Source: a virus
Taxonomy: Duplodnaviria; Heunggongvirae; Uroviricota; Caudoviricetes
Virus record (IMG/VR): IMGVR_UViG_3300028534_000019
Location: 31,091 to 95,090 of that record
Reading direction: 5' to 3' (one strand)
DNA: 64,000 nt
This document shows positions 2,370 through 39,772 of this stretch, piece after piece. Numbering within the stretch: the first letter of the stretch is position 1; each line of letters starts with the position of its first letter. Under the pieces are notes generated by a model. The model was not told the origin of the DNA. It did not search any database and saw nothing but the letters and a program-made list of their open reading frames with translations. The position numbers and the translations under genes were made by a program.

Positions 2370-3512
2370 TTGGATTGTAAAATGAAACATAATTCTATAA
2401 TAGTAATAGATTTTTCTCATTTATCAAGTAGAATGTTATATGTTGCTGTATCACAAGCACATCCAAAAAAGAAAAATGGTAAATTTATTACTTCTGATTT
2501 TGTGAAATATTATAAACATTTGATATTTAATTCTTTACAATCAGTAAATACTAAGTTTAAAGGTGATATAATTATTGCTATGGATGGCAGAGATAATTGG
2601 AGAAAGAAATTTTATCCATTATATAAAGCACATAGGGCAAAAGATAGAGATAAATCTGAAATAAATTTTGCTGAATATTATGAAGAACTTGATAAGGTAG
2701 CAAATGCTTTAGAAAATTATTTCCCTTATAAAGTTATTAAAGTAGATGAAGCAGAAGCAGATGATATTGCTGGGGTTATAAGTAATACTTATGGTAATGA
2801 AATGAATATAACTTTAGTTACATCAGACCACGATTGGCAACAAGTACAAGCAGAAAATGATTTAATTACATTTTTTGACCCAATTAAAAGACTTGAAATA
2901 GAAATATCAGCAGATATGCAGGAAATTATTGATACACCTGAGGGTAAAATGTCAAGATTTACAGTAATTCATACCTTATTAGGTGATGATGGGGATAATG
3001 TACCGGGTGTTGTTAAATATACTGAATTTTCAGATAGTTTTATTTCTTTCTTAAAAGAAAATGGTATATATGATGTATCAGTTAAGAATTTTCATAAACT
3101 GAGTATGGCAGATGAACTACTTCAAAAATTTGATGTTTATAAAGTAGTTAAATCAGGGAAGAAAAAAGGGCAATTTTCAGATATTAAAGATATTTACAAA
3201 ACAAAAGCATTCGGAAAAGTTAAGGCTGAAAAAGTTTCACAAAATTCTGAAACACTTAATAAGTTTTTAGATTCTGATGAAATGTATAGAGATAATTTTA
3301 AAAGAAATGCTGTTTTAGTTGATTTCAATAAAATTCCAAAATTTGTAGAAGAAAAAATACTACAAGAATATAAAACAAAAAATAATCTTGCTAAAAATAA
3401 CAAGATATTAGAATATTTTATAAATGAAGGTTTGGGTGAGATGGTTCAAAAAGTTCATCTTTTTTATGGTGACTCAGATGAATCATCACTTGATGATTTT
3501 TTAGAATGGTAG
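2370..3512 (+). CDS. rnh: RNase H / FEN-family 5'-3' exonuclease (T4 rnh-like)
   Basis: N-terminal IIVIDFSHL (T4 rnh: ICLIDFSQI), DGRDNWRKKFYPLYKAHR, VDEAEADDIAGV and TSDHDWQQV match T4 RNase H acidic clusters. Position after gene 32 as in T4. Confidence 0.85.
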   Translation: MDCKMKHNSIIVIDFSHLSSRMLYVAVSQAHPKKKNGKFITSDFVKYYKHLIFNSLQSVNTKFKGDIIIAMDGRDNWRKKFYPLYKAHRAKDRDKSEINFAEYYEELDKVANALENYFPYKVIKVDEAEADDIAGVISNTYGNEMNITLVTSDHDWQQVQAENDLITFFDPIKRLEIEISADMQEIIDTPEGKMSRFTVIHTLLGDDGDNVPGVVKYTEFSDSFISFLKENGIYDVSVKNFHKLSMADELLQKFDVYKVVKSGKKKGQFSDIKDIYKTKAFGKVKAEKVSQNSETLNKFLDSDEMYRDNFKRNAVLVDFNKIPKFVEEKILQEYKTKNNLAKNNKILEYFINEGLGEMVQKVHLFYGDSDESSLDDFLEW

Positions 3513-3516
3513 TTTA

Positions 3517-3786
3517 TTATTCTGAAAAAACAAATTTTACAAAGGAATATTGTTTCCATATTTCACTTTTTTGAAGTGTTGTATTAATAAATGCTTCAAG
3601 TCTATCAGGATATTTATAAGAATTTATTCTTTTTATATTATGTTCTGATAGTTCTTTACTTGGTATTATTTTTTTATCCCCTAAAATTGCTAGACTATTT
3701 GATAAAATATAGTTTGCTTCTTCATTAGAATTTCTTTCAAGTAAAGTTTTATATATGTTATTGATGTTTTCATTAGAAAAAATCAT
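3517..3786 (-). CDS. hypothetical 89-aa protein on the minus strand
   Basis: Fills the rnh-primase gap exactly. Good AAGGAA RBS 6 nt upstream on the minus strand. No motif recognised. Confidence 0.45.
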   Translation of the reverse strand: MIFSNENINNIYKTLLERNSNEEANYILSNSLAILGDKKIIPSKELSEHNIKRINSYKYPDRLEAFINTTLQKSEIWKQYSFVKFVFSE

Positions 3787-3826
3787 ATTACATTCCTTAT
3801 TTTAAAAATATTTATAAAGGTTATTT

Positions 3827-4873
3827 ATGGCTATTATAGAACCATTAGAACAAAAATACTTCTTACTAGAAACCTCATCTAAAGACATAGGATACATTAA
3901 AAGTGATGATATATCTAAATCTTGTGATATATGTAATGAGGGTTCATCTTATGGTAGAAAACACCGACTTCATTTATACACTAAACCTACATATGATACA
4001 CCATCAATAGCGTGTTTTAATTGTGGTTATAAAGGTAATATGTATAGTTATCTTAGAGATTACCATCCTACTTTATTTGACCAATATAAAAAAGAAAAAA
4101 TGGGTAGTACCTTTAAAGAGTTAAAATTATCAAAAAATAAAAATAAAAACTCTAATAATGAAACAACAGAAGATATAAATTTAGATAATATTTTTAGTTC
4201 ACACAAAACAAAACACACACCAATATTAGGCGATTTACCAAAAAGTTTTAAGCCTTTATTAGAATTTGAAGAACCTATAAAATACTTAAAGAATAGAAAA
4301 ATAGAAAACTATGATAGATGGTATTTTTCACCAAAAGATAATAATATTGTATTTAATGGTGCTGAGGTAAGATTAAGTGAATATATTATTATACCATTCT
4401 ATAAAGAAGATAAAATATATGGTTTTCAAGCATTATCATACAAACAAAAAAGATTTTTTGTATTTTTATTAAAAGGTAATGATAGTTGGAAAGTTGAAAA
4501 TTGGTTTAATATAGATAGAGAGAAAAATATATATGTTTTTGAATCTGTTTATGATAGACTTTCATCAGGTTTAGATAATACTATTTCCCAAATGGGTGCT
4601 AGTTTATCAGTTGAAAGAATAGAAGAATTAAATAAAAATAAGCTAGTTTTTTGTTTGGATAATCAAAATATTGATGAAGCATCACAAAGAGAGTCTTTAA
4701 AATATGCTGAGAAAGGTTATAATGTTTTTATTTGGCCGACTAAGATACCAAAAAAATTTAAAGATACAAATGATTTACTAAAGGGTGGTGTACCAAAAGA
4801 AAAGATTAAAGAGATTATTGAAAATAATACCTTTAGTGGTACAGAAGCAATTTTGAGATTAAAAATGATATAA
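3827..4873 (+). CDS. 61: DNA primase, T4 gp61 family (zinc ribbon + TOPRIM)
   Basis: CDICNEG...CFNCGY zinc ribbon, collinear with T4 gp61 CPVCGDS...CYNCNY. YVFESVYDRL matches the gp61 TOPRIM motif YVLEGPIDSL. Confidence 0.8.
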   Translation: MAIIEPLEQKYFLLETSSKDIGYIKSDDISKSCDICNEGSSYGRKHRLHLYTKPTYDTPSIACFNCGYKGNMYSYLRDYHPTLFDQYKKEKMGSTFKELKLSKNKNKNSNNETTEDINLDNIFSSHKTKHTPILGDLPKSFKPLLEFEEPIKYLKNRKIENYDRWYFSPKDNNIVFNGAEVRLSEYIIIPFYKEDKIYGFQALSYKQKRFFVFLLKGNDSWKVENWFNIDREKNIYVFESVYDRLSSGLDNTISQMGASLSVERIEELNKNKLVFCLDNQNIDEASQRESLKYAEKGYNVFIWPTKIPKKFKDTNDLLKGGVPKEKIKEIIENNTFSGTEAILRLKMI

Positions 4874-4883
4874 AGGAATAATA

Positions 4884-5633
4884 ATGTATATACCAAGAAG
4901 AGAATTTGATGATGAACCAAAAATAATTATTTTTAGTGGTGCTGGATTGGATGCCCCATCAGGATTAAAAACTTTTAGGGGTTCTGATGGTTTATGGGAT
5001 AGCCACAAAATACAAGATATTTGTACTGAAAGTACTTGGAAACAAAATTTTGAAGAAGTTCATAATTTTTATAATGGTTTAAGAAATAAATTAGAAAAAG
5101 CACAACCAAATAAAGCACATTTAAAAATAAAAGAATTATATGAAAAGTACCCTGATAGTGTTCTAAATATTACAATGAATATATCAGACTTTTTTGAAAG
5201 GTTAGAAGTTCCAGTTCTTCATATTCACGGAGAACTTAAAAAAATGGAATGTTATGCTTGTGGTACTAAATGGGATATTGGGTATAAGCAGTGGGATATT
5301 GAAAAAGATAGGTGTCCTAAATGCAATAGTAGAAAAGGTGTGAAACCATCTATTGTATTTTTTGGTGGTCAAGCACCTATGTATAGCTACTTGTGGCGTG
5401 CTTTTGAGCATACTATGAATAAAGATACTATTGTGATTGTTATTGGTACTCAGGGTAATGTAGTGAATGTAGAAGAGAATTTAATAGGTACTCCTTGTAA
5501 GAAAATTCTTTGTAATATGGAAGCATCAGCAGATATTAATGTAAAAAAATGTGGTTTTGATAAGGTGTACTATGAAAGTATAGAAACAGCAATAGACAAA
5601 ATTATGGATGATATTGAAGAATGGAAAAAATAA
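4884..5633 (+). CDS. Sir2-family NAD-dependent deacylase / ADP-ribosyltransferase (short sirtuin)
   Basis: GAGLDAPSGLKTFRG (GAGIS..SGIP.FR), GLW, NISDFF, catalytic LHIHGEL, CxxC...CxxC Zn module, VVIGTQGNVV. Confidence 0.8.
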   Translation: MYIPRREFDDEPKIIIFSGAGLDAPSGLKTFRGSDGLWDSHKIQDICTESTWKQNFEEVHNFYNGLRNKLEKAQPNKAHLKIKELYEKYPDSVLNITMNISDFFERLEVPVLHIHGELKKMECYACGTKWDIGYKQWDIEKDRCPKCNSRKGVKPSIVFFGGQAPMYSYLWRAFEHTMNKDTIVIVIGTQGNVVNVEENLIGTPCKKILCNMEASADINVKKCGFDKVYYESIETAIDKIMDDIEEWKK

Positions 5634-6088
5634 AAATATTCACAAGTTACTATTCTAATATTAACAAAATCAGAGAGAATTATCCTGATTTTGTTTTAAT
5701 TTCAATTAGTGGTGGTTTGGAAAATAATATTATAACTTTAATAGATGATTGGGATAAAAGGTTAGCACCTAAAAAAGATTTCTTCTTAGAGTATAAAAAT
5801 TCAAAAGAAGGTTTACCACGAGAGATTAAATATGTAAAAGAATTTAATGATAAAGTTCTATATAAAGATAAAATAAAAATAATTATAAACTCTTGGTTAG
5901 AAAAATATCCAAACAAAACTATTGTAATGCTTTGTTATGAACATCCTAAAGATTTTTGTCATAGACAAATAGTAGCTAAAGAAATTGAAACTGTTTTTAA
6001 TGTTGATGTAAAAGAATTATTTTTTGAAAATTATGAAAGAATAGATTATAAAATGTTTCCTAAAGGCTTAGATGAAGATGAATGGTAA
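5621..6088 (+). CDS. DUF488-family protein, overlapping the Sir2 stop by 13 nt
   Basis: C-terminal MLCYEHPKDFCHRQIVAKEI resembles the DUF488 signature (LxCxExxPxxCHR). Family assignment is from memory of the Pfam consensus. Confidence 0.5.
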   Translation: MEKIKIFTSYYSNINKIRENYPDFVLISISGGLENNIITLIDDWDKRLAPKKDFFLEYKNSKEGLPREIKYVKEFNDKVLYKDKIKIIINSWLEKYPNKTIVMLCYEHPKDFCHRQIVAKEIETVFNVDVKELFFENYERIDYKMFPKGLDEDEW

Positions 6089-6165
6089 TTATTAATTTTT
6101 TATTTAATATTGTTTTAATCTAAATCATATTATAATTTCATCATATTTAAGGAAAAGGCTATAAT

Positions 6166-6639
6166 ATGAAAAAAGAATTAAAAATAGATATATTAGATAA
6201 TCTACAAAGAAATAGTGTTTGTGTTATTTTTAAACCAAGTGATAGTGTTTCACATATACTTATTTTGGAAGAATTAGTAAATAGAGTAGTATCAAGTGAA
6301 GTGATATTAAAAAGAGATACACTTGAGTATCTTAGAGATTCAGAAATAGAAATATATCCATTAGTTTATATGTCAAAAAATGATTTTGATGAATTACCTC
6401 AAAATGTCAAAGCAAGAGTTAGTTGTGTTGATGGTGAGATGTTATTTGAAAGTGTAGAAGATGATAGACAATTATCTAAAACAACCTTTTCTATACAAAT
6501 AGAAGATAAAGAATATACAAAAGATGAACTTTTAAAAGAAGTTGTTATGAGAATGAGTAATTTAGAAGATGGTACTTATGCTAGTACACCTGATGATTAT
6601 GATGACTTTTATAGTTCTTACAGTTTTAAAAAGATTTAA
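6166..6639 (+). CDS. hypothetical protein
   Basis: 157-aa ORF preceded by a TATTATAAT/GCTATAAT promoter-like region and a GGAAAAGG RBS. Confidence 0.5.
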   Translation: MKKELKIDILDNLQRNSVCVIFKPSDSVSHILILEELVNRVVSSEVILKRDTLEYLRDSEIEIYPLVYMSKNDFDELPQNVKARVSCVDGEMLFESVEDDRQLSKTTFSIQIEDKEYTKDELLKEVVMRMSNLEDGTYASTPDDYDDFYSSYSFKKI

Positions 6640-6640
6640 T

Positions 6641-6708
6641 TTTTAAGTTTCATTTAAGTTTAATATGTTATAATTTTACATATCAAAAGACAAAAAGGAT
6701 TTAAAATG
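6641..6708 (+). promoter_or_regulatory. promoter-leader cassette (extended -10 TGTTATAAT at 6666-6674, AAAAAGGA RBS); near-identical copy at 36837..36904
   Basis: A 66-nt stretch repeated with one mismatch upstream of two unrelated genes. Host sigma70-like extended -10. Confidence 0.6.
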
Positions 6709-6954
6709 TCACAAATTAATTTCAAAAAAGTTTCTTACTATGTAGTTTCAATTATGGTATTATTTTCTTTAATAGCAATATTATCAAAACCATCACAAAT
6801 TGAGATAGATGTAAAATCAGGTACTAAAACTCTAACTTGTGAATTTGCTGATGGATGGAGAGAAATAGAACCTGAAAAAGTTGTTGGGTTTAATGATGAA
6901 AATGGATATTGGACTTTTACAAATGGTTATGCTAAAAATTGTGAGGTTAGATAG
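6706..6954 (+). CDS. small membrane-anchored protein (N-terminal TM helix)
   Basis: 82-aa ORF with a hydrophobic N-terminus YYVVSIMVLFSLIAIL. Confidence 0.45.
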   Translation: MSQINFKKVSYYVVSIMVLFSLIAILSKPSQIEIDVKSGTKTLTCEFADGWREIEPEKVVGFNDENGYWTFTNGYAKNCEVR

Positions 6955-7157
6955 TGTTTGTTGATAAAATTTTAGAAAATGGTGTAGAGTGTGTTTTTAT
7001 TACACACTCCAACAAAATAAGAAAGGCATATAGATATAAAAATATTATTTGGAAAATATATGCTAGTGGTGGTTATTCTGAAGTTTTTGAAAGTGAAATT
7101 CAATTCTCAGGAACAAGAGAAGAAGCAAAACAGAAATATCCTGAATTATTTTTTTAA
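6954..7157 (+). CDS. small protein with C-terminal ...KYPELFF tail
   Basis: 67-aa ORF. Member of the recurrent YPE-x-x-F C-terminal set. Confidence 0.45.
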   Translation: MFVDKILENGVECVFITHSNKIRKAYRYKNIIWKIYASGGYSEVFESEIQFSGTREEAKQKYPELFF

Positions 7158-7463: not shown

Positions 7464-8191
7464 ACTATATATCTATATTAGCTGGTGGTTCTTGTAAATT
7501 TAATTGTGAATTTTGTGTTGGTAATTCTATAAGAGAAAATATCACACCTCATTATAGTTCAAAAATCAAAGGTTTTTTAGAATGTTATGCTGATAGAACA
7601 CAATTACTTTCAGTTTCAGGTGATACTTCAGACCCATCATTAATAAGTGAAACAATATTTATTCCTGTTGAAGCAAAAGAGTATAATAAAGATATAAAAG
7701 TTAGCATACATACAAGGGATATATATTTTACTGAAAAAGCAATGGATTATGGTTATGATAAAATTGTTTTAAGTATTGATGAAACACTTTCAGAAAATGA
7801 TTATCAAACCTTAGTAAATTATTATTACCACTATGGTTATAATATTAGATTAAGTTTTGTTTTAACATCATCTAATTTTTGGATTATTGATGAATGGAAA
7901 AAAGATTTTCCAGCATTATTTGATATGGAATTAACAATAAGACCTGATGTATTTGAAAAAGATGAGGTTTTTAGAAAACATATTTTTTTAGAAACATTTC
8001 TTGGTATAGATGGAGATTGGCAAAATATAGAGCAATATAAAAATGAATATGGTGCTATTGTTTTAGAAAAGTACCCTAATGTTTGGTATTGGGATTATAA
8101 TGTTACTAATAAAAATCTTGATGTTTTATATCTTTTTAGTAATGGTGACATAAAAAATAATTGTAAGTGGGAAAATTTATATGAAAATTAG
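7457..8191 (+). CDS. radical SAM domain protein
   Basis: N-terminal CKFNCEFC (CX3CX2C 4Fe-4S motif) preceded by a Gly-rich AGGS. Downstream SVSGDTSDP is a GGEP-like SAM-binding motif. Confidence 0.65.
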   Translation: MLDYISILAGGSCKFNCEFCVGNSIRENITPHYSSKIKGFLECYADRTQLLSVSGDTSDPSLISETIFIPVEAKEYNKDIKVSIHTRDIYFTEKAMDYGYDKIVLSIDETLSENDYQTLVNYYYHYGYNIRLSFVLTSSNFWIIDEWKKDFPALFDMELTIRPDVFEKDEVFRKHIFLETFLGIDGDWQNIEQYKNEYGAIVLEKYPNVWYWDYNVTNKNLDVLYLFSNGDIKNNCKWENLYEN

Positions 8192-8423
8192 ATTAATAGA
8201 TTATAAAGAAGAAAGTTTTGATTTTCCTTACCCACCAAATTATGGTATGGATTTAGCAAAAATAAAAATAATGGGTAGTACTTTAGATATAGATAAGAAA
8301 CTATCTAAACATCTTGCTGAGTATAATTATTTTATGTATAAGGGTATGAAGATATTTTTTGAAGATTTAAACAATGACTCAAAAAAGAAAATGTATTCAG
8401 AATACCCTGAATATTACTTTTAG
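8181..8423 (+). CDS. small protein with C-terminal ...EYPEYYF tail
   Basis: 80-aa ORF. Member of the YPE-tail set. Confidence 0.45.
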   Translation: MKIRLIDYKEESFDFPYPPNYGMDLAKIKIMGSTLDIDKKLSKHLAEYNYFMYKGMKIFFEDLNNDSKKKMYSEYPEYYF

Positions 8424-8438
8424 TGATTAGGGGATTAT

Positions 8439-8795
8439 ATGAGTTTAGAAAGTACAGTGGCTTCACAGTCAATACACCCAGGAACATATGAAGTACATTG
8501 GGAAAATACATTCGATACAAAAGAAATAGTTAGTACAATAGAAATAAAACAAACTATATATTCTAGTAATCAATTAAAAAAAGTTCTTAAAAAATTATTA
8601 AAAAATTTTGATAAATTAAATAGTGAAATAAAATTAATAGAACCATCATATAATAATACTGAAGAAAAAATTAATAGAACATTTGCTATAATTGATATGA
8701 ATAATGAATATGAGATTAATAAACTAATTTCAGAAGGGTATTCTTTAAAAGAGATACACCAAGGTAAATTTATATTATACAAAAGGATTATATAA
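8439..8795 (+). CDS. hypothetical protein
   Basis: 118-aa ORF. Confidence 0.4.
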   Translation: MSLESTVASQSIHPGTYEVHWENTFDTKEIVSTIEIKQTIYSSNQLKKVLKKLLKNFDKLNSEIKLIEPSYNNTEEKINRTFAIIDMNNEYEINKLISEGYSLKEIHQGKFILYKRII

Positions 8796-9316
8796 TGGTT
8801 TTAAATTTTTATGGCGGGCCGGGTATTGGTAAAAGTACAAAAGCATCAGAGTTATTTTTTAGATGTAAACAACAAAACTTACAGGTTGAATTAATACACG
8901 AGTTTGCTAAAGATATGGTTTATTCTCAATCTATGGAAATATTGAAAGACCAATATTATGTAGGTGCTAATCAACATCATAGGGTGTGGAGAGTTCATAA
9001 CTATTACTTACAACAAGGTTTTAAAGAGGATGAATTTCTTATAATAACTGATAGTCCTATTTTGTTGGGTGCGGCTTATACTGATGATGATAAATTAAGA
9101 GATTTTATTTTTGAAACTTCAGAAAGATATAATAATATTAATATTATGCTAACAAGAAAATTTAATTACCAAGAAGAGGGAAGAAACCAAGATTTAAAAG
9201 GTGCTATTGAGATTGATAAAAAAGTTTTAGATTTATTAAATAAAACTTCTTATATAGAAACAAATGATACAGATAAAATTTTATCTCTAATTAAGGAAAA
9301 AATGAGTACAATATAA
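8795..9316 (+). CDS. P-loop NTPase / small-molecule kinase (NadR-RNK or AAA_28-like)
   Basis: Walker A GGPGIGKST at the N-terminus and IITDSP Walker-B-like. The layout resembles ribosylnicotinamide/nucleotide kinases. Exact substrate is not inferable. Confidence 0.5.
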   Translation: MVLNFYGGPGIGKSTKASELFFRCKQQNLQVELIHEFAKDMVYSQSMEILKDQYYVGANQHHRVWRVHNYYLQQGFKEDEFLIITDSPILLGAAYTDDDKLRDFIFETSERYNNINIMLTRKFNYQEEGRNQDLKGAIEIDKKVLDLLNKTSYIETNDTDKILSLIKEKMSTI

Positions 9317-24447: not shown

Positions 24448-25548
24448 ATGTTAGTTCAAAATAAAAAAGTTCCAAAAGAAACATTAGAGTTATTGGACTC
24501 TAAAATAGAAGAATTTGAAAAAAATACAAATTCAACTGTTTTATATATTACAATTACAGGTTCTGTTCTTTATGGTACTGATAATGAAAATAGTGATTTA
24601 GATTTTAAAGGTATTTTTATGCCTAATCTAAAAGAAGTGCTTATTGGTAATACACCTAGTGCTTTTGTTTTTAATTCAAATACAAAAGATAAAAACTCTT
24701 CTGATGATATTGATTTAACATTACACCCTGTAAATGACTTCTTTAATCATCTTAGAAAATCTGAAACAGGTGCTGTTGATTTACTTTTTAGTATGTTTAG
24801 AGAAGATACTATTGTTTTTGATGATGGTATTTTCACGAACTTTATGAAGAAAAATTATCAAAAGTTTAGAAATTCTAATATGAAAAGTTTTATCGGTTAT
24901 GCTGTTGGTCAAACTAAAAAATTTGGGATTAAAGGTGCTAGATATGAAGAGTTAGATGTTTTTTATAAAGATTGTGTTAATTATTTTAATCTTGCTCCAA
25001 AAGAAAATAAATTAGGTGAATATTGGGATTTTCTTGAACTAAAAGCCCAAGGTAAAAAATATATTAAGTTTACAAAAGCAGAAGGTGCTAGAAGAAATGA
25101 TGGTAGTAGTAATATCATTGATTATATTTCTGTTCTTGGTAAACTATATCATAAAGATGTAACAGTAGGTTATTTTTTAGAAAGAGTTTCTAAATTTTAT
25201 AATCAATTTGGTAATAGAACTAAAACAGTAGCTAAAACTGAATCAAAAACAGATTGGAAAGCAATGAGCCACGCCCTTAGAGTAGCTATGGAAGTTAAAG
25301 AGTTACTTCAATTTGGTTTTATTAAATTTCCATTGACTTATGCTGATGAGATTAAAGAAGTTAAATTTGGTAACAGAGAAGAACAAGAAACATTAGATAA
25401 AATTAGAGATGTATTGGGTGAAGTTGATACAATATTAGAAAATATTGATAAAGATAACTTTCCTTGTGAAATGAGTGAAGAATTACTTAAAAAATTAAAA
25501 TGGGAAGTAATTCTTCTATATAAAGAGTTTTTAGATTTAGGTTTTTAA
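24448..25548 (+). CDS. nucleotidyltransferase-fold protein (Pol-beta / CD-NTase-like GS...D.D motif)
   Basis: ITGSVLYGTDNENSDLDFKGIF is the [GS]x9-13 Dh[DE]h signature. A third acidic DIDLT lies downstream. 366 aa. Confidence 0.55.
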   Translation: MLVQNKKVPKETLELLDSKIEEFEKNTNSTVLYITITGSVLYGTDNENSDLDFKGIFMPNLKEVLIGNTPSAFVFNSNTKDKNSSDDIDLTLHPVNDFFNHLRKSETGAVDLLFSMFREDTIVFDDGIFTNFMKKNYQKFRNSNMKSFIGYAVGQTKKFGIKGARYEELDVFYKDCVNYFNLAPKENKLGEYWDFLELKAQGKKYIKFTKAEGARRNDGSSNIIDYISVLGKLYHKDVTVGYFLERVSKFYNQFGNRTKTVAKTESKTDWKAMSHALRVAMEVKELLQFGFIKFPLTYADEIKEVKFGNREEQETLDKIRDVLGEVDTILENIDKDNFPCEMSEELLKKLKWEVILLYKEFLDLGF

Positions 25549-26664: not shown

Positions 26665-27576
26665 ATGGAAGAACAAATAGCGATTGATTTAGGCTATTCA
26701 ACATCAAAAGTTGCTTATGCTGATAAAATAGCAAAATTCCCAACTGCTGTTTCTTTTGCTACTGATGTAGGTACATCATATGGTGAAGGGAATATTTATG
26801 ACTTTGAGGGAGATAAGTATTATGTGGGTAGTGAAGCCGCTGATGCTGAGGCTTTTACAACTATGGATTTTAAATTTTTATATAAATTTGCTCCTCTTCT
26901 TATCTATCATATTTTAAGTAAATTTGATAAAGCAGAACTTGAAAAACCTATTGTTGTAAAAACAGGATTGGCAATTGTTGATTGGCATAAAAAAGATGAT
27001 TTTATTGAAAGAATTTCAAAAATTGAAGTGAATGGGCAAACTGTTGAAACAACACCCATTCTTATTCCTCAAGGTGCTGGATGTGCTGTTGATTGGGTTT
27101 CATCAGATAATGATGGAGAATGGCCGGACAATCTTACAGTAGTTGATATTGGTTATAATACTATTAACCTTATATCATTTTTAGAGGGTAAACCAATTAG
27201 AAAAAATATGAAAAGTTACCCAGGACACGGTGTTTCTAGTATAATTAAACCTTTTACTAGTTATCTTGAAAATACTTTTGGTACAACATTTTCAGAACAA
27301 GAAGCAATTAAATTTTTTGTTAAAGGTACTTTTAAATATAATGGTGAAGACCAACCTAAAGTATCAGAAAAAATTACAGAATTAAAATCACAATTTGTTA
27401 AAAAAATGTTTCAATCTGTTTTAGTTTCTGATAAAAAACTTCTTGCTATGTCAGATGTAGTGCTTATTGCTGGTGGTGGTGCTTATTTACTTCAAGATAT
27501 TCCATTCCCGCCAAATGTTGAGTTTGTTGATTCTCCTTATGAGTTCAGTAATACTCGTGGTTATTTAATTTCATAA
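26665..27576 (+). CDS. actin-like ATPase of the ParM/StbA/Alp family
   Basis: Phosphate-1 IAIDLGYSTSKVA, phosphate-2 VVDIGYNTINL, adenosine motif LIAGGGA. 303 aa. Confidence 0.75.
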   Translation: MEEQIAIDLGYSTSKVAYADKIAKFPTAVSFATDVGTSYGEGNIYDFEGDKYYVGSEAADAEAFTTMDFKFLYKFAPLLIYHILSKFDKAELEKPIVVKTGLAIVDWHKKDDFIERISKIEVNGQTVETTPILIPQGAGCAVDWVSSDNDGEWPDNLTVVDIGYNTINLISFLEGKPIRKNMKSYPGHGVSSIIKPFTSYLENTFGTTFSEQEAIKFFVKGTFKYNGEDQPKVSEKITELKSQFVKKMFQSVLVSDKKLLAMSDVVLIAGGGAYLLQDIPFPPNVEFVDSPYEFSNTRGYLIS

Positions 27577-31567: not shown

Positions 31568-32455
31568 ATGGATAAAGGTTTATTTGGAATTATTGGAGCA
31601 GGTGTATTAGTAGTTATGCTATTAATTTTAGGTGCTACATCAGTTTATACAGTTGATGAGGGTAAAGTTGGTATTGTAAAGACTTGGGGTAAAGCAGTAA
31701 AGCAAGTTAATCCCGGACTTCACTTCAAAATGCCTATTGCTGATGAGGTTGTAGAGATTGAGGTAAGAACAAGAAAAAATGTTGAAACTATGAGTATTGC
31801 TACAAGTGAGCAAATGGCGGCAAAAGCAACTGTTTCTATGAACTGGACTGTTAATAAAGCAAGTGTTTTAGAACTCTATAAGAAATATGGCTCACTTGAC
31901 CAATTTGAAAGTAGAATTTTAGACCCAAAACTTAGAGATGCCACAAAAGAGGGTATTGCTAAATTTACAGCAGAACAAAATATTAAGAACAGAGGTGTAA
32001 GCACACTCAAAGTTAAGGAATTATTTATTAACCAAATTAAAGGTTATCCTATTACTGTTAATGGTTTTCAAATTGAAGATATTCAATTAAGTAAAAAATA
32101 TCTTGCTTCAATTGATGCTAAACAAACAGCTAAAAATGAAAGAGATGCTGAAAAATTTAAACTTGAAAAACAAGCCCTTGAAGCACAAAGAGCAGTAAAT
32201 ACAGCAAATGCTGAAAGAGATGCCGCTAAAGCAAGAGCAGATGGTGTGGCTTATAAAATTGAAGCAGAAGCAAAAGCAAATGCTAAGAAAATTGCCCTTA
32301 TTGCTGGAGCAGAAGCAAAAGCAATTAAACAAAAAGCACAAGCACTTAAAAATAACCCTGCTATTATAGACTATATGAGAGCAGAAAAATGGAGTGGGAA
32401 TTATCCTACTACTATGATGGGTAGCAACCCAAACATTCTTATGAAATTAAAATAA
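31568..32455 (+). CDS. SPFH / Band 7 (stomatin-prohibitin-HflK family) membrane protein
   Basis: N-terminal TM helix, then YTVDEGKVGIVKTWGK...PGLHF (SPFH core). C-terminal Ala/Lys-rich coiled coil. Confidence 0.8.
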   Translation: MDKGLFGIIGAGVLVVMLLILGATSVYTVDEGKVGIVKTWGKAVKQVNPGLHFKMPIADEVVEIEVRTRKNVETMSIATSEQMAAKATVSMNWTVNKASVLELYKKYGSLDQFESRILDPKLRDATKEGIAKFTAEQNIKNRGVSTLKVKELFINQIKGYPITVNGFQIEDIQLSKKYLASIDAKQTAKNERDAEKFKLEKQALEAQRAVNTANAERDAAKARADGVAYKIEAEAKANAKKIALIAGAEAKAIKQKAQALKNNPAIIDYMRAEKWSGNYPTTMMGSNPNILMKLK

Positions 32456-33464: not shown

Positions 33465-34577
33465 ATGAAAATTACAGAGATTAAACCTATTTTACAGTTT
33501 TCTAAAGATGCTGATGATGCTGTAATCATTGAGGGTAAACACGGTATTGGTAAATCAGAAATAGTTAAACAATATTGTTCGGAAAATGGTTATTTTTATA
33601 CTGTTTTATTTTTAAGTCATCAAGAAGTTGGTGATTTGATTGGTATGCCTTTTGAAAAAAATGGTATTCAATATTGGTCTAAACCATCTTGGTTAGTAAG
33701 AATGGAAGAAGCATCAGCAAGAGGGGAACATAATGTTTTACTCTTAGATGAGTTAAACCGAGCCCAAACTGATGTATTACAAAGTGCTTTACAACTTGTT
33801 TTAGAAAGACAAATTCACGAGCATTTCTTACCTACTACTGATGGTGTAAGAAGTCAAGTAATTGCTTGTATTAACCCTGATGATGATTTATATCAAGTAA
33901 TTACACTTGACCCAGCACTAAAAGATAGATTTTTACATTTAAAAACAAGTGAAGATTTACAAGGATGGGTTAAATGGGGTGGTGAAAAAGGAGTACCTGA
34001 TGTTGTTATTCATTACTTGCTTGAAAATGAAAATGATTTTCATAGTACAAATGAAGATGGTGAGGGTGCTACACCAAGAAGTTGGTATAAATTAAGTCAA
34101 TTCTTGAAAATATTTGAAGATAAAGAAGTTGAAGAATTTCAACTTTGGGAGATTATTAAAGGTAAAGTAGGTTCAAGTATCGGTAGCAAATTCCTTAACT
34201 TTTATAATACTCATAGTACATTTATTGATGTTACAAAAATTAAAAAGTTTTTAAATAAATATAAAAGAGATATTTCTGATTTACCTGAAATTGGTGCTGA
34301 ATTAGCTAGTTATATTAAAGGTCTTGAACAAGTAACTAAAGTAGAACAAGTTAATAAACTATATCACGACAGTATTGAAAAAATTAAAGATACTAAAGTT
34401 ACTATGGATGATGAAGATATTTTCACTATTTTTGCTATGCTTCACGCTTTTGAAATAGAAGTAACAACATCAGTTATGAAGCAATGGAAAAATGAAAGTG
34501 TGAGTGATTTTATGGATTTTGTTAAAAAAGATAATAAAGAACTCATTACATTAATAACAAGAAGATTAAAAACATAA
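33465..34577 (+). CDS. MoxR/CobS-like AAA+ ATPase (AAA_5)
   Basis: Walker A GKHGIGKSE, Walker B/sensor LLLDELNRA. 370 aa. Confidence 0.75.
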   Translation: MKITEIKPILQFSKDADDAVIIEGKHGIGKSEIVKQYCSENGYFYTVLFLSHQEVGDLIGMPFEKNGIQYWSKPSWLVRMEEASARGEHNVLLLDELNRAQTDVLQSALQLVLERQIHEHFLPTTDGVRSQVIACINPDDDLYQVITLDPALKDRFLHLKTSEDLQGWVKWGGEKGVPDVVIHYLLENENDFHSTNEDGEGATPRSWYKLSQFLKIFEDKEVEEFQLWEIIKGKVGSSIGSKFLNFYNTHSTFIDVTKIKKFLNKYKRDISDLPEIGAELASYIKGLEQVTKVEQVNKLYHDSIEKIKDTKVTMDDEDIFTIFAMLHAFEIEVTTSVMKQWKNESVSDFMDFVKKDNKELITLITRRLKT

Positions 34578-35219: not shown

Positions 35220-36473
35220 ATGGCTAAGAGTAATTTAAGAAGTGAAATTATTGAGGAAACTGTTATAAATGCCTTTTCAAATAAGAGAGATGGTTTTGTA
35301 AATGAGTATGCTTTTTATTTTCATATGTTTGCTATGTGTAATATAATTGAAACAGAAGATGTAGAGTTAGCAGGTGTTAATTTTATTAAAAAATGGAATT
35401 TATATATAAATCCTAAAGAGTTTCAAAAATATTCACTTAATCAAAGACTTGGTATAATTAAGCACGAAATGCTTCACATAATTTTTAACCATTTAGTAAG
35501 AATGGAAAACAAAGAAAAAGAAGAATGGAATTTAGCTACTGATTGTGCTATTAATCAAATGATTAGAAGTGCTGATTTACCTAAAGAAAGAGTAGATACA
35601 AAAAGTCTAAGTGAATATTTGGGTGTTGATGTACCTACTAATCAAAGTGCTGATTATTATTATGATTTAATTATGAAAAATAAAAAACAACAAAATAAAT
35701 GTGGTGGCAGTTCATCAGGTGGTTGTCCACAACAAGGTGATGGTAGTGGTTCTGATGAAAGTGATGGTTTAGGTACATTAGATGACCATAATAAATGGGA
35801 AGAGTCGGAAAGTATGGATGGTATAGAAGAACTTATTGAATCTTCTGTTAAAGATATGGTTTCAAAAGCCCAAGACAAAAACAGAGGTCTAACACCACAA
35901 GAACTTAATGAAATTATTGAGATTATTTTTGGTAAATCTGTTGTTAATTGGAAAAGTGTTTTAAGAAATATTGTTTCTAATAGAAGAGTTAATAAAAGAT
36001 ATACAATTCAAAAAAGGAATAGAAGATTCCCAAAAAGAATAGAAATTAGAGGTACAACAAAAGAGAAAAAATTTGATATTGTTGTTATACTTGATATTTC
36101 AGGTAGTATGAATGATAGTGAAATTCAAGATGGTTTAAATGAAATTAAAGCAATTGCTAAATTAACAAAATCTAGTATTAAGATAATTCAAGTCGATACA
36201 ACTGTTAAAGAAGTTCAAGAGTTTACAGCAAAGACAAAAACATTTAATAGACTTGGTTGTGGTGGTACAATGATGTATCCAGCACTTCAATATATAAAAG
36301 ATAACAAAATAGATATGGATTGTGGCATTTTGATTTCAGATATGATGATTGAAAGTTTAGATACTTGGGAACAAAAAGGTTTAGCACCAAAATGTAAATT
36401 TATCTTTTTGAATACTAGTAACCACTCACTAAAAACAACAACAAGAAAAAACTATATGTTTTTTGATTTATAA
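35220..36473 (+). CDS. VWA-domain protein with N-terminal HExxH metallopeptidase-like domain (CobT/DUF2201-like partner of MoxR ATPase)
   Basis: KHEMLHIIFNH (HExxH). Gly/Ser-rich linker. VWA MIDAS VVILDISGSMND...GGT. Confidence 0.7.
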   Translation: MAKSNLRSEIIEETVINAFSNKRDGFVNEYAFYFHMFAMCNIIETEDVELAGVNFIKKWNLYINPKEFQKYSLNQRLGIIKHEMLHIIFNHLVRMENKEKEEWNLATDCAINQMIRSADLPKERVDTKSLSEYLGVDVPTNQSADYYYDLIMKNKKQQNKCGGSSSGGCPQQGDGSGSDESDGLGTLDDHNKWEESESMDGIEELIESSVKDMVSKAQDKNRGLTPQELNEIIEIIFGKSVVNWKSVLRNIVSNRRVNKRYTIQKRNRRFPKRIEIRGTTKEKKFDIVVILDISGSMNDSEIQDGLNEIKAIAKLTKSSIKIIQVDTTVKEVQEFTAKTKTFNRLGCGGTMMYPALQYIKDNKIDMDCGILISDMMIESLDTWEQKGLAPKCKFIFLNTSNHSLKTTTRKNYMFFDL

Positions 36474-36901: not shown

Positions 36902-37321
36902 ATGATTTTAATCATAGATACATTATTTACAGAAAGTGTTGCTTTAACAGTTATTCAAGAAAAAGAGAATGAAAAAAGAGTTAAAGAAGTTAATTATAAA
37001 GATGTTAAAAAAGAAATTGAAAATAACACTTTTAATATTTGTAATTTAAAAGATGATGTTATAAGATTTATTAAAATAAATGATGTTCCTGCTGATGTTT
37101 TTGAAAGTTTTAAAGAGTATTTAAGAGGTTGTTTATTTGAATTAACAGTTAAAAACCTTAAAAAAGGTTTTGAAGATACTTTGAAAATACAAGAAGTTAC
37201 TAAATCAATTAATGATTTAGATATTAAAATTTCTATTGCTGATAATGTTTTTGAATTAGGACAATTATCAATAGCATTAGATTATTATAAAAATGAATTA
37301 GATAAAATAAAAGGGTTATAA
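36902..37321 (+). CDS. hypothetical protein
   Basis: 139-aa ORF behind the second copy of the 66-nt promoter cassette. Confidence 0.45.
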   Translation: MILIIDTLFTESVALTVIQEKENEKRVKEVNYKDVKKEIENNTFNICNLKDDVIRFIKINDVPADVFESFKEYLRGCLFELTVKNLKKGFEDTLKIQEVTKSINDLDIKISIADNVFELGQLSIALDYYKNELDKIKGL

Positions 37322-39451: not shown

Positions 39452-39772
39452 GGGGATGATATGGTTTCGACTGGAAGTCATAGCACTAATGATACCTTTT
39501 AAAATTAAACGCAAACAACACAGATTACACTGGTAACACAGTGCTTTCAGCATAGTCTAAGGACTTGACTGAGGGGTTTTTAAGTTTTACCTTGCAACAG
39601 AAAAACTTATCCTTTTCGTTTTATATGGTTGTATGTCCTTAACATACATTAAAGTTTGTAATCTTTTCAAAATTACACATAAAAGTTAATAGTTCTTGGT
39701 TCTTTTAAAAACTAGAACATATCATTAGTGTGGATTTTTAGGACTCGGGTTCAATTCCCGACATCTCCACCA
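39452..39772 (+). ncRNA. ssrA: tmRNA (ssrA), about 321 nt
   Basis: 5' GGGGAUG pairs with 3' CAUCUCC-ACCA, giving an acceptor stem with a G3:U wobble (Ala identity). 3' tRNA-like GGACUCGGGUUCAAUUCCCGA T-arm. Encoded CCA. Internal tag ORF GCA AAC AAC ACA GAT TAC ACT GGT AAC ACA GTG CTT TCA GCA TAG gives ANNTDYTGNTVLSA-stop. Coordinates are +/-1 to 2. Confidence 0.85.

What the first reader, a model, noticed from the sequence alone, without database searches (positions are those of the whole stretch)
4884..6088. Sir2-family enzyme translationally coupled to a DUF488 protein
A short sirtuin has all catalytic and Zn motifs. It overlaps by 13 nt with a gene whose C-terminus carries the CHR signature I associate with DUF488. 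Bacterial Sir2 domains are frequent NAD-depleting effectors of anti-phage systems (Thoeris, DSR, Sir2-HerA). A phage-borne Sir2 could be any of three things: a counter-defence decoy or NAD-consuming host-shutoff enzyme, a deacylase regulating host proteins, or part of a superinfection-exclusion pair with the DUF488 partner. The pairing itself is not a combination I recognise.
Basis: partly seen in the sequence, partly recalled or inferred. Interest (0 to 1): 0.6.

Follow-up and report, generated by a model that had tools for sequence, protein, structure and literature searches.

The report
Phage sirtuin beside DUF488 phosphatase-like gene
A T4-like phage, probably infecting vent Campylobacterota, carries a CobB-like sirtuin gene that overlaps a DUF488 gene, but the two are ordinary phage accessory genes that became direct neighbours through a local deletion, not a conserved two-gene system.

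Summary
ORF 4884-5633 is a Sir2-family protein (Pfam 98.8 bits; model matches E. coli CobB at TM 0.82-0.88). ORF 5621-6088 is a DUF488-N3a protein (39.4 bits, cutoff 27) with the invariant CYE..DFCHR loop. They overlap by 13 nt.

The pairing does not hold as a system. A quarter of same-strand neighbours in this window overlap. The start ATG sits inside Sir2's conserved Trp codon, and in relatives the same ATG starts other genes. In nine related vent-metagenome contig types Sir2 lies upstream of DUF488. All except this window have 1-5 ORFs between them, nearly always including an ORFan ("F3") abutting DUF488. Two relatives keep DUF488 but only a Sir2 stump, and three have no Sir2 nearby.

Outside this lineage, Sir2 lies within 8 kb of about 4 of 227 DUF488 loci. 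DUF488 lies near 1 of 31 phage-type Sir2 loci.

Sir2 matches no PADLOC defence model. Phage Sir2/CobB has been known since KVP40 (PHROG 2162).

A loose NAD/RNA-end theme recurs nearby: RlaP, CoaE-like kinase, NAD-kinase-like, NMNAT-like and CCA-adding enzyme genes. A functional link therefore stays possible but is unproven.

Verdict: new members of known families, modest interest.

The parts
4884..5633 (+). Sir2-family (CobB-like, phage-type) sirtuin gene, 249 aa
   Evidence: Pfam SIR2 98.8 bits and PHROG 2162 177 bits. E. coli CobB 1s5p/6rxj at E about 1e-30 by sequence. AF2 model pLDDT 93.7, TM 0.82-0.88 to CobB. About 42% identical to the KVP40 Sir2/CobB. Single copy in the window.
4938..4952 (+). 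NAD-binding GAGLD motif (G19-D23), with Asp replacing the canonical Ser of GAGIS
   Evidence: Alignment to CobB. Column counts in 40 and in 120 homologues.
5172..5189 (+). TMNISD motif (T97-D102), a variant of the canonical TQNID; Asn99 is kept, Gln becomes Met and Asp becomes Ser
   Evidence: Among 120 homologues, 83 are GAGxS+TQNxD and 33 are GAGxD+TxNx[S/T]. There are essentially no mixed types.
5226..5228 (+). Catalytic His115 codon (HG motif)
   Evidence: Invariant H115-G116 in 40 homologues. Aligned to the CobB catalytic 'HMHGEL'.
5250..5324 (+). Zn-ribbon Cys4 (C123, C126, C144, C147)
   Evidence: All four are invariant in 40 homologues. Read directly from the sequence.
5621..5633 (+). 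13-nt overlap junction. The DUF488 start ATG is formed by the last base of Glu246 plus the first two bases of Sir2's conserved Trp247 codon (GAA TGG).
   Evidence: The same embedded ATG starts F3 in L135 and F10 in L004. The DUF488 product carries three extra N-terminal residues (MEK) compared with relatives that begin MKFFTSYY.
5621..6088 (+). DUF488-N3a gene, 155 aa (Rhodanese-phosphatase-type fold, predicted Cys-dependent phosphotransfer enzyme)
5933..5965 (+). Signature loop C105-Y-E-H-P-K-D-F-C113-H-R115, between strand 101-105 and helix 114-126
   Evidence: Invariant columns C105, E107, F112, C113, H114, R115 in 62 sequences. Secondary structure of the model.
24448..25548 (+). RlaP-family nucleotidyltransferase. 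It may share a theme with the pair but is not linked to it here (19 kb away).
   Evidence: Pfam RlaP 52 bits and phrog_388 194 bits. Its homologue lies between Sir2 and DUF488 in relative L127 and near both genes in the unrelated phage contig L091.
38175..39122 (+). CCA-adding / poly(A) polymerase-family nucleotidyltransferase. It may share a theme with the pair but is not linked to it here.
   Evidence: Pfam PolyA_pol 65.5 bits. NCBIfam CCA tRNA nucleotidyltransferase models match but below their cutoffs.

Best explanation
These are two separate accessory enzymes in the variable early/replication region of a T4-like phage of Campylobacterota. They are not an obligate pair.

Shown:
- Gene 1 is a complete, well-conserved class-III-like (CobB-like) sirtuin of the type already known in KVP40-, T5- and rV5-like phages.
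- Gene 2 is a complete DUF488-N3a protein with a Rhodanese-phosphatase-type fold and an intact Cys/His/Arg loop.
- Their direct contact and 13-nt overlap are peculiar to this genome. Relatives have Sir2-(F10/F12)-F3-DUF488, and this window lacks F3.

Inferred:
- A deletion of F3 left DUF488 using the start ATG that lies inside Sir2's C-terminal Trp codon. That ATG serves whichever gene follows Sir2.
- The sirtuin transfers ADP-ribose from NAD+ to a nucleophile. The most likely target is an acyl-lysine (deacylation), as in CobB, its closest solved relative. An RNA 2'-phosphate (KptA-like) is the published alternative.
- Its nicotinamide pocket is remodelled, with the Asp moved from TQNID to GAGxD.
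- DUF488 uses Cys105/Cys113 with Arg115 to remove or transfer a phosphate on a ribose. The substrate would be a nucleic-acid end or an NAD/ADP-ribose-type nucleotide.
- Both probably serve the phage's upkeep of NAD-derived nucleotides and RNA/DNA ends during infection, without needing each other.
For: Identity of the two proteins.

Overlap is generic:
- 20 of 80 same-strand neighbour pairs overlap, including functionally unrelated ones such as ThyX, dCMP deaminase and HSP70 with their downstream ORFs.
- The same embedded ATG starts F3 in L135 and F10 in L004.

Adjacency is not conserved. The gaps between the Sir2 stop and the DUF488 start, computed from those coordinates, are:
- L135: 295 nt
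- L141: 358 nt
- L004: 521 nt
- L129: 599 nt
- L008: 858 nt
- L006: 1.0 kb
- L137: about 1.35 kb
- L127: 2.4 kb

DUF488 survives without Sir2:
- L010 keeps only about 45 N-terminal Sir2 residues, fused to the upstream gene. L108 keeps 93 residues. Both have an intact DUF488.
- L139, L140 and L146 have no Sir2 within the 2-8 kb available.

No association beyond the lineage:
- A Sir2 lies within 8 kb in 3 of 80 IMG/VR DUF488 loci, 0 of about 67 distant metagenome loci, and 1 of 80 GTDB genome loci.
- DUF488 lies near 1 of 31 phage-type Sir2 loci.
- KVP40, an Erwinia jumbo phage and Vibrio phage 1.121.O do not pair the two genes.

Other linkages in the same region are conserved about as well, which points to inherited synteny. 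Examples are UpS-Sir2, NDT-like-Sir2, DUF488-F7 and DUF488-CoaE.
Against: - Sir2 stays upstream of DUF488, on the same strand and within 2.4 kb, in nine distinct contig types. This holds although Sir2 has diverged to 57-78% and DUF488 to 43-57% identity, and although the surrounding genes have been rearranged. Some selection for linkage cannot be excluded.
- In L135 and L141 the block Sir2-F3-DUF488 is contiguous.
- Relatives place NAD- or RNA-end-related genes in or beside the block. These are RlaP, a CoaE homologue (91.7 bits), an NAD-kinase-like gene, an NMNAT-like gene and a nucleoside-deoxyribosyltransferase-like gene.
- Two unrelated large-phage lineages (L061; L081/L091) again put a Sir2 of a different clade within 0.8-4.5 kb of DUF488, alongside RlaP, a CCA-adding enzyme, a nicotinamidase and an NMNAT.
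- No biochemical activity has been tested for either protein.
Confidence: 0.55

Rival explanations
1. Sir2-(F3)-DUF488 is a real lineage-specific functional module for NAD+-dependent healing of damaged RNA ends. It would be a fourth layout of the 'viral sirtuin RNA-repair' neighbourhoods predicted by Iyer et al. 2022. In this reading the sirtuin transfers ADP-ribose onto an RNA 2'-phosphate, as KptA/Tpt1 does, releasing ADP-ribose 1''-2'' cyclic phosphate. DUF488, a Cys phosphatase of the RapZ-C/DUF488/DUF4326 group, then removes the leftover ribose-linked phosphate, either from ADP-ribose-1''-P or from the RNA end. RlaP, the CCA-adding enzyme and kinases would finish the repair. The benefit would be survival of tRNA-cleaving host defences.
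For: - Sir2 lies upstream of DUF488 in nine related contig types.
- RlaP sits inside the block, and a CoaE-like kinase sits directly after DUF488, in L127.
- The window itself encodes RlaP, a CCA-adding enzyme and a calcineurin-like phosphoesterase.
- L091 has DUF488, RlaP, a CCA-adding enzyme, Sir2 and a nicotinamidase within 6.8 kb. L061 has Sir2, YqeY, DUF488 and an NMNAT.
- PMC9503650 predicts that most phage sirtuins act like KptA next to phosphatases and kinases. It also predicts that a related Rhodanese-phosphatase domain (DUF4326) processes terminal phosphates on ADP-ribose.
Against: - Sir2 decayed in L010 and L108 while DUF488 stayed intact. There is no Sir2 near DUF488 in L139, L140 or L146.
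- There is no association in about 227 distant DUF488 loci or 30 other phage-Sir2 loci.
- No RNA ligase, 2H, cREC or Nudix gene was found among the window ORFs scanned.
- In this window RlaP and the CCA-adding enzyme lie 19-33 kb away.
- F3, the most constant DUF488 neighbour, is missing here.
- The KptA-like activity of phage sirtuins is itself only a prediction.
Confidence: 0.25
2. The Sir2 is a conflict protein taken from host defence islands. It would serve either for superinfection exclusion, as an NAD+-consuming or ADP-ribosylating toxin with DUF488 as its modulator or antidote, or as a counter-defence decoy against host NAD-based immunity.
For: - The closest cellular homologues (54-67% identity) sit in defence or mobile islands.
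- In Hydrogenimonas thermophila the homologue lies among GmrSD, a PemK toxin, a WYL-WCX regulator, McrB and three more SIR2 ORFs.
- In a Sulfurimonas single-cell genome it lies among cREC, a second SIR2, WYL, an ADP-ribosylglycohydrolase, Fic, HigB and integrases.
- DUF488 weakly matches two PADLOC candidate-system models, PDC-M19A and PDC-M45C.
Against: - Sir2 has no hit to any PADLOC model.
- It is a bare 249-aa catalytic domain with no sensor or partner domain.
- Its nearest solved relatives are the CobB and SIRT5 deacylases, not defence NADases.
- The phage is T4-like and apparently lytic, with no lysogeny genes seen.
- The two genes are not a conserved pair, and DUF488 persists without Sir2.
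- Phage Sir2/CobB genes are widespread in lytic T5-, rV5- and KVP40-like phages.
Confidence: 0.1
3. The sirtuin is a host-takeover protein deacylase, for example activating acetyl-CoA synthetase or resetting host or phage protein acylation, as proposed for KVP40-like phages. DUF488 is a DNA-end or nucleotide phosphatase of the replication/repair module with no connection to NAD at all.
For: - CobB is the best sequence and structure match.
- PMC5107563 proposes ACS deacetylation for the phage Sir2/CobB.
- Distant DUF488 genes lie among replication genes such as DNA polymerase III alpha, ligase, dUTPase and ribonucleotide reductase.
- One cellular DUF488 is followed by an AP_endonuc_2-family gene.
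- The pair sits directly after gp32, RNase H and primase.
Against: - The succinyl-lysine-binding YxxR of CobB/SIRT5 reads YNGL here and varies within the lineage.
- All NCBIfam CobB-type models score far below their cutoffs.
- The remodelled nicotinamide pocket hints at altered chemistry.
- The recurrence of NAD-related neighbours is left unexplained.
Confidence: 0.1

Closest known systems
Phage Sir2/CobB proteins (PHROG 2162; KVP40.0043 of Vibrio phage KVP40; T5-like, rV5-like and jumbo-phage 'Sir2-like' genes)
   Same: Same family: PHROG 2162 at 177 bits, and about 42% identity to KVP40-group proteins. It shares the phage-type GAGLD...T(M/A)N(I/V)SD motif pair with KVP40. It is a small single-domain protein encoded among early/replication genes of large lytic phages. 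Its function has never been tested experimentally.
   Different: It keeps the Cys4 Zn ribbon, which the KVP40 protein lacks. It belongs to a new T4-like lineage whose terminase is only about 40% identical to any cultured phage. In KVP40 the neighbours are unrelated ORFs and topoisomerase, with no DUF488.
E. coli CobB (PDB 1S5P, 6RXJ) and class III sirtuins (SIRT5)
   Same: Best solved match by sequence (E about 1e-30) and by fold (TM 0.82-0.88, 28-29% identity). It has the catalytic His, GAG motif, Asn99, Zn ribbon and overall architecture.
   Different: - The active-site Asp has moved: GAGIS/TQNID in CobB reads GAGLD/TMNISD here.
- The YxxR acyl-carboxylate motif reads YNGL.
- It scores far below every NCBIfam CobB equivalog cutoff, for example 120 against 320 bits.
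Predicted viral sirtuin RNA-repair neighbourhoods (Iyer, Burroughs, Anantharaman, Aravind 2022, PMC9503650)
   Same: A phage sirtuin that is not coupled to a Macro domain, in genomes that also carry end-processing enzymes. The window has RlaP, a CCA-adding enzyme and a calcineurin-like phosphoesterase. Relatives place RlaP and a kinase inside the Sir2...DUF488 block.
   Different: - The three published layouts use 2H/Nudix/cREC/PIN, tRNA ligase/cREC/kinase/MazG, or a HAD phosphatase.
- Here none of those was found next to the sirtuin.
- The nearby phosphatase-like gene is a DUF488.
- The linkage is loose and dispensable.
[quoted passage not shown] That placement is from my memory of the abstract; the paper was not available.
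Defence-associated Sir2 NADases (Thoeris ThsA, DSR1/2, Sir2-HerA, short pAgo-Sir2)
   Same: Only the Sir2 superfamily fold and NAD+ as substrate.
   Different: - No PADLOC model matches it.
- It has no SLOG, HerA, Ago or sensor partner.
- It has a canonical deacylase-type Zn ribbon and catalytic His.
- It is carried by a lytic-type phage.
SirTM-macrodomain operons (sirtuin ADP-ribosyltransferase plus a reversing hydrolase)
   Same: The general idea of a sirtuin gene coupled to a gene for an enzyme that processes its ADP-ribose product.
   Different: The partner here is not a Macro, ARG or NADAR domain, and the pairing is not conserved. The sirtuin keeps class-III-like features rather than SirTM features.

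Membership tests
Sir2/sirtuin family (Pfam PF02146) | Profile match above the curated gathering score | tested here: met
   98.8 bits against a cutoff of 24, covering profile positions 1-178 of 180.
Sir2/sirtuin family (Pfam PF02146) | Catalytic His in the HG motif, plus the Rossmann GAG NAD-binding motif | tested here: met
   H115-G116 and G19, G21 are invariant in 40 homologues. They align to the CobB motifs.
Sir2/sirtuin family (Pfam PF02146) | Canonical GAGIS and TQNID motifs (Ser and Asp lining the nicotinamide/ribose pocket) | tested here: not met
   The motifs read GAGLD and TMNISD. Across 120 homologues the Asp is in either one motif or the other (83 against 33), never both or neither. 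This indicates a compensated relocation rather than loss.
Sir2/sirtuin family (Pfam PF02146) | Cys4 zinc-ribbon module | tested here: met
   C123, C126, C144 and C147 are invariant.
Sir2/sirtuin family (Pfam PF02146) | Sirtuin fold | tested here: met
   AF2 model pLDDT 93.7. Foldseek to CobB 6rxm/1s5p gives E about 1e-21 and TM 0.82-0.88.
Sir2/sirtuin family (Pfam PF02146) | NAD+-dependent deacylase or ADP-ribosyltransferase activity | not testable with these tools
   Needs an enzyme assay.
CobB protein deacylase equivalogs (NCBIfam NF040867, NF001755 and others) | Score above the curated equivalog cutoff | tested here: not met
   Best scores are 130 against 243, 122 against 318 and 120 against 320 bits.
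Phage Sir2 (PHROG 2162) | Profile match over the full length | tested here: met
   E = 7.5e-52, 177 bits, residues 9-243. tblastn matches in 1009 phage records.
Defence-associated Sir2 effectors (Thoeris, DSR, Sir2-HerA, pAgo-Sir2) | Match to a defence-system Sir2 model | tested here: not met
   PADLOC-DB gives 0 families at E <= 0.01.
Defence-associated Sir2 effectors (Thoeris, DSR, Sir2-HerA, pAgo-Sir2) | Fused or adjacent sensor or partner (SLOG, HerA, Ago, TIR, large C-terminal domain) | tested here: not met
   The protein is a single 249-aa domain. Its neighbours are primase and DUF488.
DUF488-N3a (Pfam PF22751) | Profile match above the gathering score | tested here: met
   39.4 bits against a cutoff of 27. 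The database's own precomputed annotation also gives PF22751.
DUF488 (general model PF04343) | Profile match above the gathering score | tested here: not met
   19.9 bits against a cutoff of 22.2. The subclade model is the better fit.
DUF488-N3a (Pfam PF22751) | 'Active' signature: conserved Cys...Cys-His-Arg loop | tested here: met
   C105, E107, F112, C113, H114 and R115 are invariant in 62 sequences. The loop sits between strand 101-105 and helix 114-126.
Rhodanese-phosphatase superfamily | Fold similarity to PTP, rhodanese or RapZ-C domains | tested here: inconclusive
Conserved two-gene Sir2-DUF488 system | Adjacency or overlap conserved in relatives | tested here: not met
   Only this window has direct contact. 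Eight other contig types have 1-5 ORFs (0.3-2.4 kb) in between.
Conserved two-gene Sir2-DUF488 system | Co-occurrence beyond one lineage, and co-loss | tested here: not met
   A Sir2 is nearby in 3/80, 0 of about 67 and 1/80 distant DUF488 loci, and DUF488 is near 1/31 Sir2 loci. DUF488 is kept where Sir2 is truncated (L010, L108).
Viral sirtuin RNA-repair neighbourhoods (PMC9503650) | Sirtuin flanked by RNA-end-healing genes (2H, cREC, Nudix, tRNA ligase, HAD or calcineurin phosphatase, kinase) | tested here: inconclusive
   None of these is adjacent in the window. RlaP, a calcineurin-like phosphoesterase and a CCA-adding enzyme lie 19-33 kb away. In relative L127, RlaP and a CoaE-like kinase lie within or next to the block. 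Not every window ORF was profiled.

The most novel reading that the evidence does not exclude
In a lineage of T4-like phages of vent Campylobacterota, Sir2-F3-DUF488 may be a working module of NAD+-dependent nucleic-acid end repair or ADP-ribose-phosphate recycling. It would sit with RlaP, a CoaE-like kinase, and NAD-kinase-like and NMNAT-like genes. The sirtuin, with its relocated active-site Asp, would transfer ADP-ribose to a phosphate. DUF488 would be the first Rhodanese-phosphatase-type enzyme shown to clear the resulting ribose-linked phosphate. This window would then be a minimal variant that has dropped F3.
Probability: 0.2. Interest if true: 0.6.

Novelty: new member of a known kind. 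Interest (0 to 1): 0.3.

Why it matters
The function of phage sirtuins has been open since KVP40 was sequenced, and DUF488 has no reported activity. A real, conserved Sir2-DUF488 operon would have given both a testable biochemical link. The data show the link is at most loose and confined to one lineage, so the finding does not open that door by itself.

What remains useful:
- A compact, Zn-containing phage sirtuin and an 'active' DUF488 that could be expressed and assayed together.
- A clean sequence signature, the Asp swap between the GAGxS/D and TQNxD/S motifs, that separates phage-type from canonical sirtuins within this family.
- A set of vent-phage contigs in which NAD-related genes cluster.

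Tried and rejected
- Megablast of the region against 50,697 phage records gave no match. There is no close cultured relative.
- Single-sequence scans of IMG/VR with either protein found nothing. Alignments were needed.
- Sequence search of the PDB with the DUF488 profile gave only a chance sulfatase hit at E = 0.03. Foldseek against the PDB found nothing below 1e-3.
- The promoter/terminator scan of 3400-7000 was uninformative. It found fewer promoter-like sites than in shuffled sequence and no terminators.
- Burroughs & Aravind 2023 (lqad029), the paper that defined DUF488-N3a, could not be read by DOI, by a guessed PMC id or by a guessed PMID. What I say about it comes from memory of the abstract.
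- I looked in the window for the NAD-related genes seen in relatives (NAD-kinase-like, NMNAT-like, NDT-like, CoaE-like, nicotinamidase) and for F3. None is present in these 64 kb.
- Genome-level co-occurrence in Erwinia jumbo phages (15 Sir2 records, 16 DUF488 records) was not resolved. The spread listing showed no Erwinia record, and I did not fetch whole genomes.
- I considered and rejected the idea that the Sir2 is a simple capture of a host housekeeping cobB. The closest cellular copies lie in defence or mobile islands with several Sir2 paralogues.
- Spatial proximity of residues 23 and 101 could not be measured because model coordinates are not returned.
Full report
**1. What is there**

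ORF 4884..5633 (+, 249 aa) and ORF 5621..6088 (+, 155 aa) exist as described and overlap by 13 nt.

The first ORF is a sirtuin:
- It matches Pfam SIR2 at 98.8 bits (cutoff 24) and PHROG 2162 'Sir2 (NAD-dependent deacetylase)' at 177 bits.
- Its best solved relatives are E. coli-type CobB structures (1s5p, 6rxj; E about 1e-30), followed by archaeal Sir2-Af1/Af2 and SIRT5.
- An AlphaFold2 model built on 40 homologues has pLDDT 93.7. It superposes on CobB at TM 0.82-0.88, with 28-29% identity.

The second ORF is a DUF488:
- It matches Pfam DUF488-N3a ('active DUF488-N3 subclade') at 39.4 bits (cutoff 27). The general DUF488 model scores just below threshold.
- In 62 homologues the residues C105, E107, F112, C113, H114 and R115 are invariant.

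**2. The genome**

The window is 26% G+C. It encodes gp32, RNase H, primase, terminase, a prohead protease, T4 neck protein, gp15, gp19 and baseplate hub proteins. Its terminase is only about 40% identical to those of Vibrio phiKT1024-like and Campylobacter CP220-like phages, and there is no near DNA match in 50,697 phage records. The same sequence occurs on 56.8-kb and 100.9-kb metagenome contigs.

The closest relatives of both genes come from the same family of metagenome assemblies, one of which is explicitly labelled a hydrothermal-vent metagenome. The nearest named cellular Sir2 homologues are from Sulfurimonas, Hydrogenimonas, Sulfurospirillum and Thiovulaceae. The host is therefore probably a member of the Campylobacterota.

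**3. Is the overlap meaningful?**

In this window 20 of 80 same-strand adjacent ORF pairs overlap. These include pairs with no conceivable functional tie, such as ThyX, dCMP deaminase or HSP70 with their downstream ORFs.

The DUF488 start ATG is formed within Sir2's conserved C-terminal codons ...GAA TGG AAA.... In relative L135 the same embedded ATG starts a different gene (F3). In L004 it starts yet another (F10). The junction is thus a property of the 3' end of the Sir2 gene. It serves whichever gene comes next.

**4. Is the pairing conserved?**

I collected relatives in four ways: exact-protein look-ups, IMG/VR scans, a metagenome scan and a GTDB genome scan. ORFs were labelled by phmmer/hmmsearch.

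Within the close lineage (DUF488 43-57% identical, Sir2 57-78%), Sir2 lies upstream on the same strand in nine distinct contig types. Only the window has direct contact. The distance from the Sir2 stop to the DUF488 start in the others is:

| Contig | Distance |
|---|---|
| L135 | 295 nt |
| L141 | 358 nt |
| L004 | 521 nt |
| L129 | 599 nt |
| L008 | 858 nt |
| L006 | 1.0 kb |
| L137 | about 1.35 kb |
| L127 | 2.4 kb |

The gene that most constantly abuts DUF488, often overlapping its start by 4 nt, is a 100-120-aa ORFan I call F3. It is present in ten contigs, has no Pfam or PHROG match, and is absent from this 64-kb window. The simplest history is Sir2-(F10/F12)-F3-DUF488 with F3 deleted here.

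Other relatives lack Sir2:
- L010 keeps only about 45 N-terminal Sir2 residues, fused to the upstream gene.
- L108 keeps 93 Sir2 residues. Both L010 and L108 have a full DUF488.
- L139, L140 and L146 show no Sir2 in the 2-8 kb available.

Other linkages in the region persist about as well (UpS-Sir2, NDT-like-Sir2, DUF488-F7, DUF488-CoaE), which looks like ordinary inherited synteny.

**5. Beyond the lineage**

- A Sir2 lies within 8 kb of DUF488 in 3 of 80 IMG/VR loci, 0 of about 67 distant metagenome loci and 1 of 80 genome loci.
- DUF488 lies within 8 kb of 1 of 31 phage-type Sir2 loci, and that one is L108, from the same lineage.
- In cultured phages Sir2 matches 1009 records and DUF488 matches 25. 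The three loci inspected (KVP40, Erwinia pEa_SNUABM_43, Vibrio 1.121.O) do not pair them.

The other criterion (DUF488 failing a profile search) is not.

**6. What the sirtuin looks like in detail**

The catalytic His115-Gly, the GAG motif, Asn99 and all four Zn cysteines are invariant. The canonical GAGIS and TQNID motifs read GAGLD and TMNISD.

Across 120 homologues, 83 carry GAGxS+TQNxD and 33 carry GAGxD+T(M/Q)Nx(S/T). There are essentially no mixed forms. KVP40 Sir2 has the second pattern. The Asp has thus swapped position with the Ser.

These two positions are the ones mutated in the Sir2-Af1 structures 1m2h (S24A) and 1m2n (D102G), so both line the NAD site. I infer a remodelled but functional nicotinamide pocket. 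I could not measure distances because model coordinates are not returned.

Further observations:
- The succinyl-lysine YxxR motif of CobB/SIRT5 reads YNGL here and varies within the lineage.
- All NCBIfam CobB equivalog models score far below cutoff.
- No PADLOC defence model matches the protein.

**7. What DUF488 looks like**

The model (pLDDT 94.4) is a small alpha/beta domain. The invariant C-Y-E-x3-D-F-C-H-R loop lies between strand 101-105 and helix 114-126. That is where PTP and rhodanese enzymes carry their Cys-x5-Arg loop; this placement is an inference.

- archaeal and dual-specificity Cys phosphatases;
- baculovirus RNA 5'-phosphatase;
- PTEN;
- a rhodanese-like domain (3g5j);
- RapZ-C;
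- the N-domains of tetrapyrrole/diphthine-type methylases.

This is the membership of the Rhodanese-phosphatase superfamily as I recall it from Burroughs & Aravind 2023, which I could not read. The searchable literature reports no activity for DUF488. DUF488 weakly matches two PADLOC candidate-system models.

**8. Hints of a shared theme**

Relatives place NAD- or RNA-end-related genes in or beside the block:
- L127 reads NAD-kinase-like, NDT-like, Sir2, two ORFs, RlaP, F3, DUF488, CoaE homologue (91.7 bits), with an NMNAT-like gene upstream.
- L129 and L108 are similar.
- The window itself has RlaP (24448-25548), a calcineurin-like phosphoesterase (37321-38004), a CCA-adding enzyme (38175-39122) and YqeY, but these lie 19-33 kb away.

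Two unrelated large-phage lineages repeat the pattern with a canonical Sir2 of another clade:
- L091 has DUF488, RlaP, a CCA-adding enzyme, Sir2 and a nicotinamidase within 6.8 kb.
- L061 has an HD protein, Sir2, YqeY, DUF488 and an NMNAT.

Iyer et al. 2022 (PMC9503650) predicted that most phage sirtuins act like KptA on RNA 2'-phosphates next to phosphatases and kinases. They also predicted that a related Rhodanese-phosphatase domain (DUF4326) clears terminal phosphates on ADP-ribose. A Sir2 / DUF488 / RlaP / kinase set would fit as another layout of that predicted system.

Against this, such genes appear in only a minority of DUF488 neighbourhoods and I have no proper control. Sir2 is also dispensable for retention of DUF488.

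**9. Cellular relatives**

The 54-67%-identical cellular Sir2 genes are not housekeeping cobB.
- In Hydrogenimonas thermophila the gene sits among GmrSD, PemK, a WYL-WCX regulator, McrB and three further SIR2 ORFs.
- In a Sulfurimonas single-cell genome it sits among cREC, another SIR2, WYL, an ADP-ribosylglycohydrolase, Fic, HigB and integrases.

This keeps a conflict-related role on the table. It also shows exchange between phages and host islands. No DUF488 is present at either locus.

**10. Conclusion**

The most probable reading (about 0.55) is two independent accessory enzymes of known families whose contact in this genome is a deletion scar.

A lineage-specific NAD-dependent end-repair or ADP-ribose-phosphate module is a real but minority possibility (about 0.25 as a rival; 0.2 in its strongest form). 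Defence/counter-defence and pure host-takeover deacylase readings are each about 0.1.

Nothing here is a new kind of system. Both proteins are new, divergent members of known families. Interest is modest.

Noticed in passing
window 39452-39772 (+): A phage-encoded tmRNA gene lies between the CCA-adding enzyme gene and an HSP70/DnaK gene. ARAGORN gives the tag peptide ANNTDYTGNTVLSA. Rfam RF00023 scores 90.8 bits against a gathering score of 47.
   Followed up: partly
window 39844-41706 (+): A full-length Hsp70/DnaK homologue is carried by the phage (Pfam HSP70 471.6 bits). The next ORF overlaps its stop by 1 nt.
   Followed up: no
window 4938-4952 and 5172-5189; alignment A4 and proteins P0122-P0241: Within this Sir2 family the active-site Asp is either in TQNxD (with GAGxS) or in GAGxD (with TxNxS/T). 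The counts are 83 against 33 of 120, with almost no mixed forms. The second pattern marks the phage-type proteins, including KVP40 and one Sulfurimonas island copy. It may indicate an altered nicotinamide pocket.
   Followed up: partly
L004:1679-1987, L135:1762-2076, L141:1001-1360, L127:9642-10004 and others: An ORFan family ('F3', 100-120 aa, no Pfam or PHROG hit) sits immediately upstream of DUF488 in ten related contigs, usually overlapping its start by 4 nt. It is a more constant DUF488 neighbour than Sir2 and is missing from this window.
   Followed up: partly
L131 (Hydrogenimonas thermophila CP136593.1) and L133 (Sulfurimonas SAG JAEMVD010000004.1): The closest cellular homologues of the phage Sir2 lie in defence or mobile islands. 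These contain several Sir2 paralogues, WYL regulators, GmrSD, McrB, PemK/HigB toxins, cREC, an ADP-ribosylglycohydrolase and integrases.
   Followed up: partly
L091:7998-14796 and L061:6035-10438: Unrelated large-phage contigs cluster DUF488 with NAD- or tRNA-related genes. L091 has RlaP, a CCA-adding enzyme, a canonical Sir2 and a nicotinamidase. L061 has an HD protein, Sir2, YqeY and an NMNAT.
   Followed up: partly
window 8795-9316 (+): A P-loop kinase-like protein (Pfam AAA_28 31.4 bits; phrog_2107 'thymidylate kinase') lies about 3 kb downstream of DUF488. Homologues lie near DUF488 (median about 2.8 kb downstream in the IMG/VR set) in 9 of 80 IMG/VR and 7 of 80 metagenome DUF488 loci. 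That is more often than Sir2 does.
   Followed up: partly
window 33465-34577 and 35220-36473 (+): A MoxR-type AAA+ ATPase (AAA_5) and a DUF2201 metallopeptidase/VWA protein lie close together in the phage.
   Followed up: no
window 26665-27576 and 31568-32455 (+): An actin-like ALP/ParM-type protein and an SPFH/Band-7 protein are encoded by the phage.
   Followed up: no
window 47965-48654 and 48890-49618 (+): Two tandem paralogous baseplate-hub genes, both matching phrog_150.
   Followed up: no
L013:374-6193 (cellular contig with a DUF488-N3a gene at 8001-8486): A cellular DUF488-N3a gene lies a few kb from a PnuC-type NMN transporter, CinA, a NUDIX-kinase fusion and an HD protein. It is followed by an AP_endonuc_2-family gene.
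   Followed up: no
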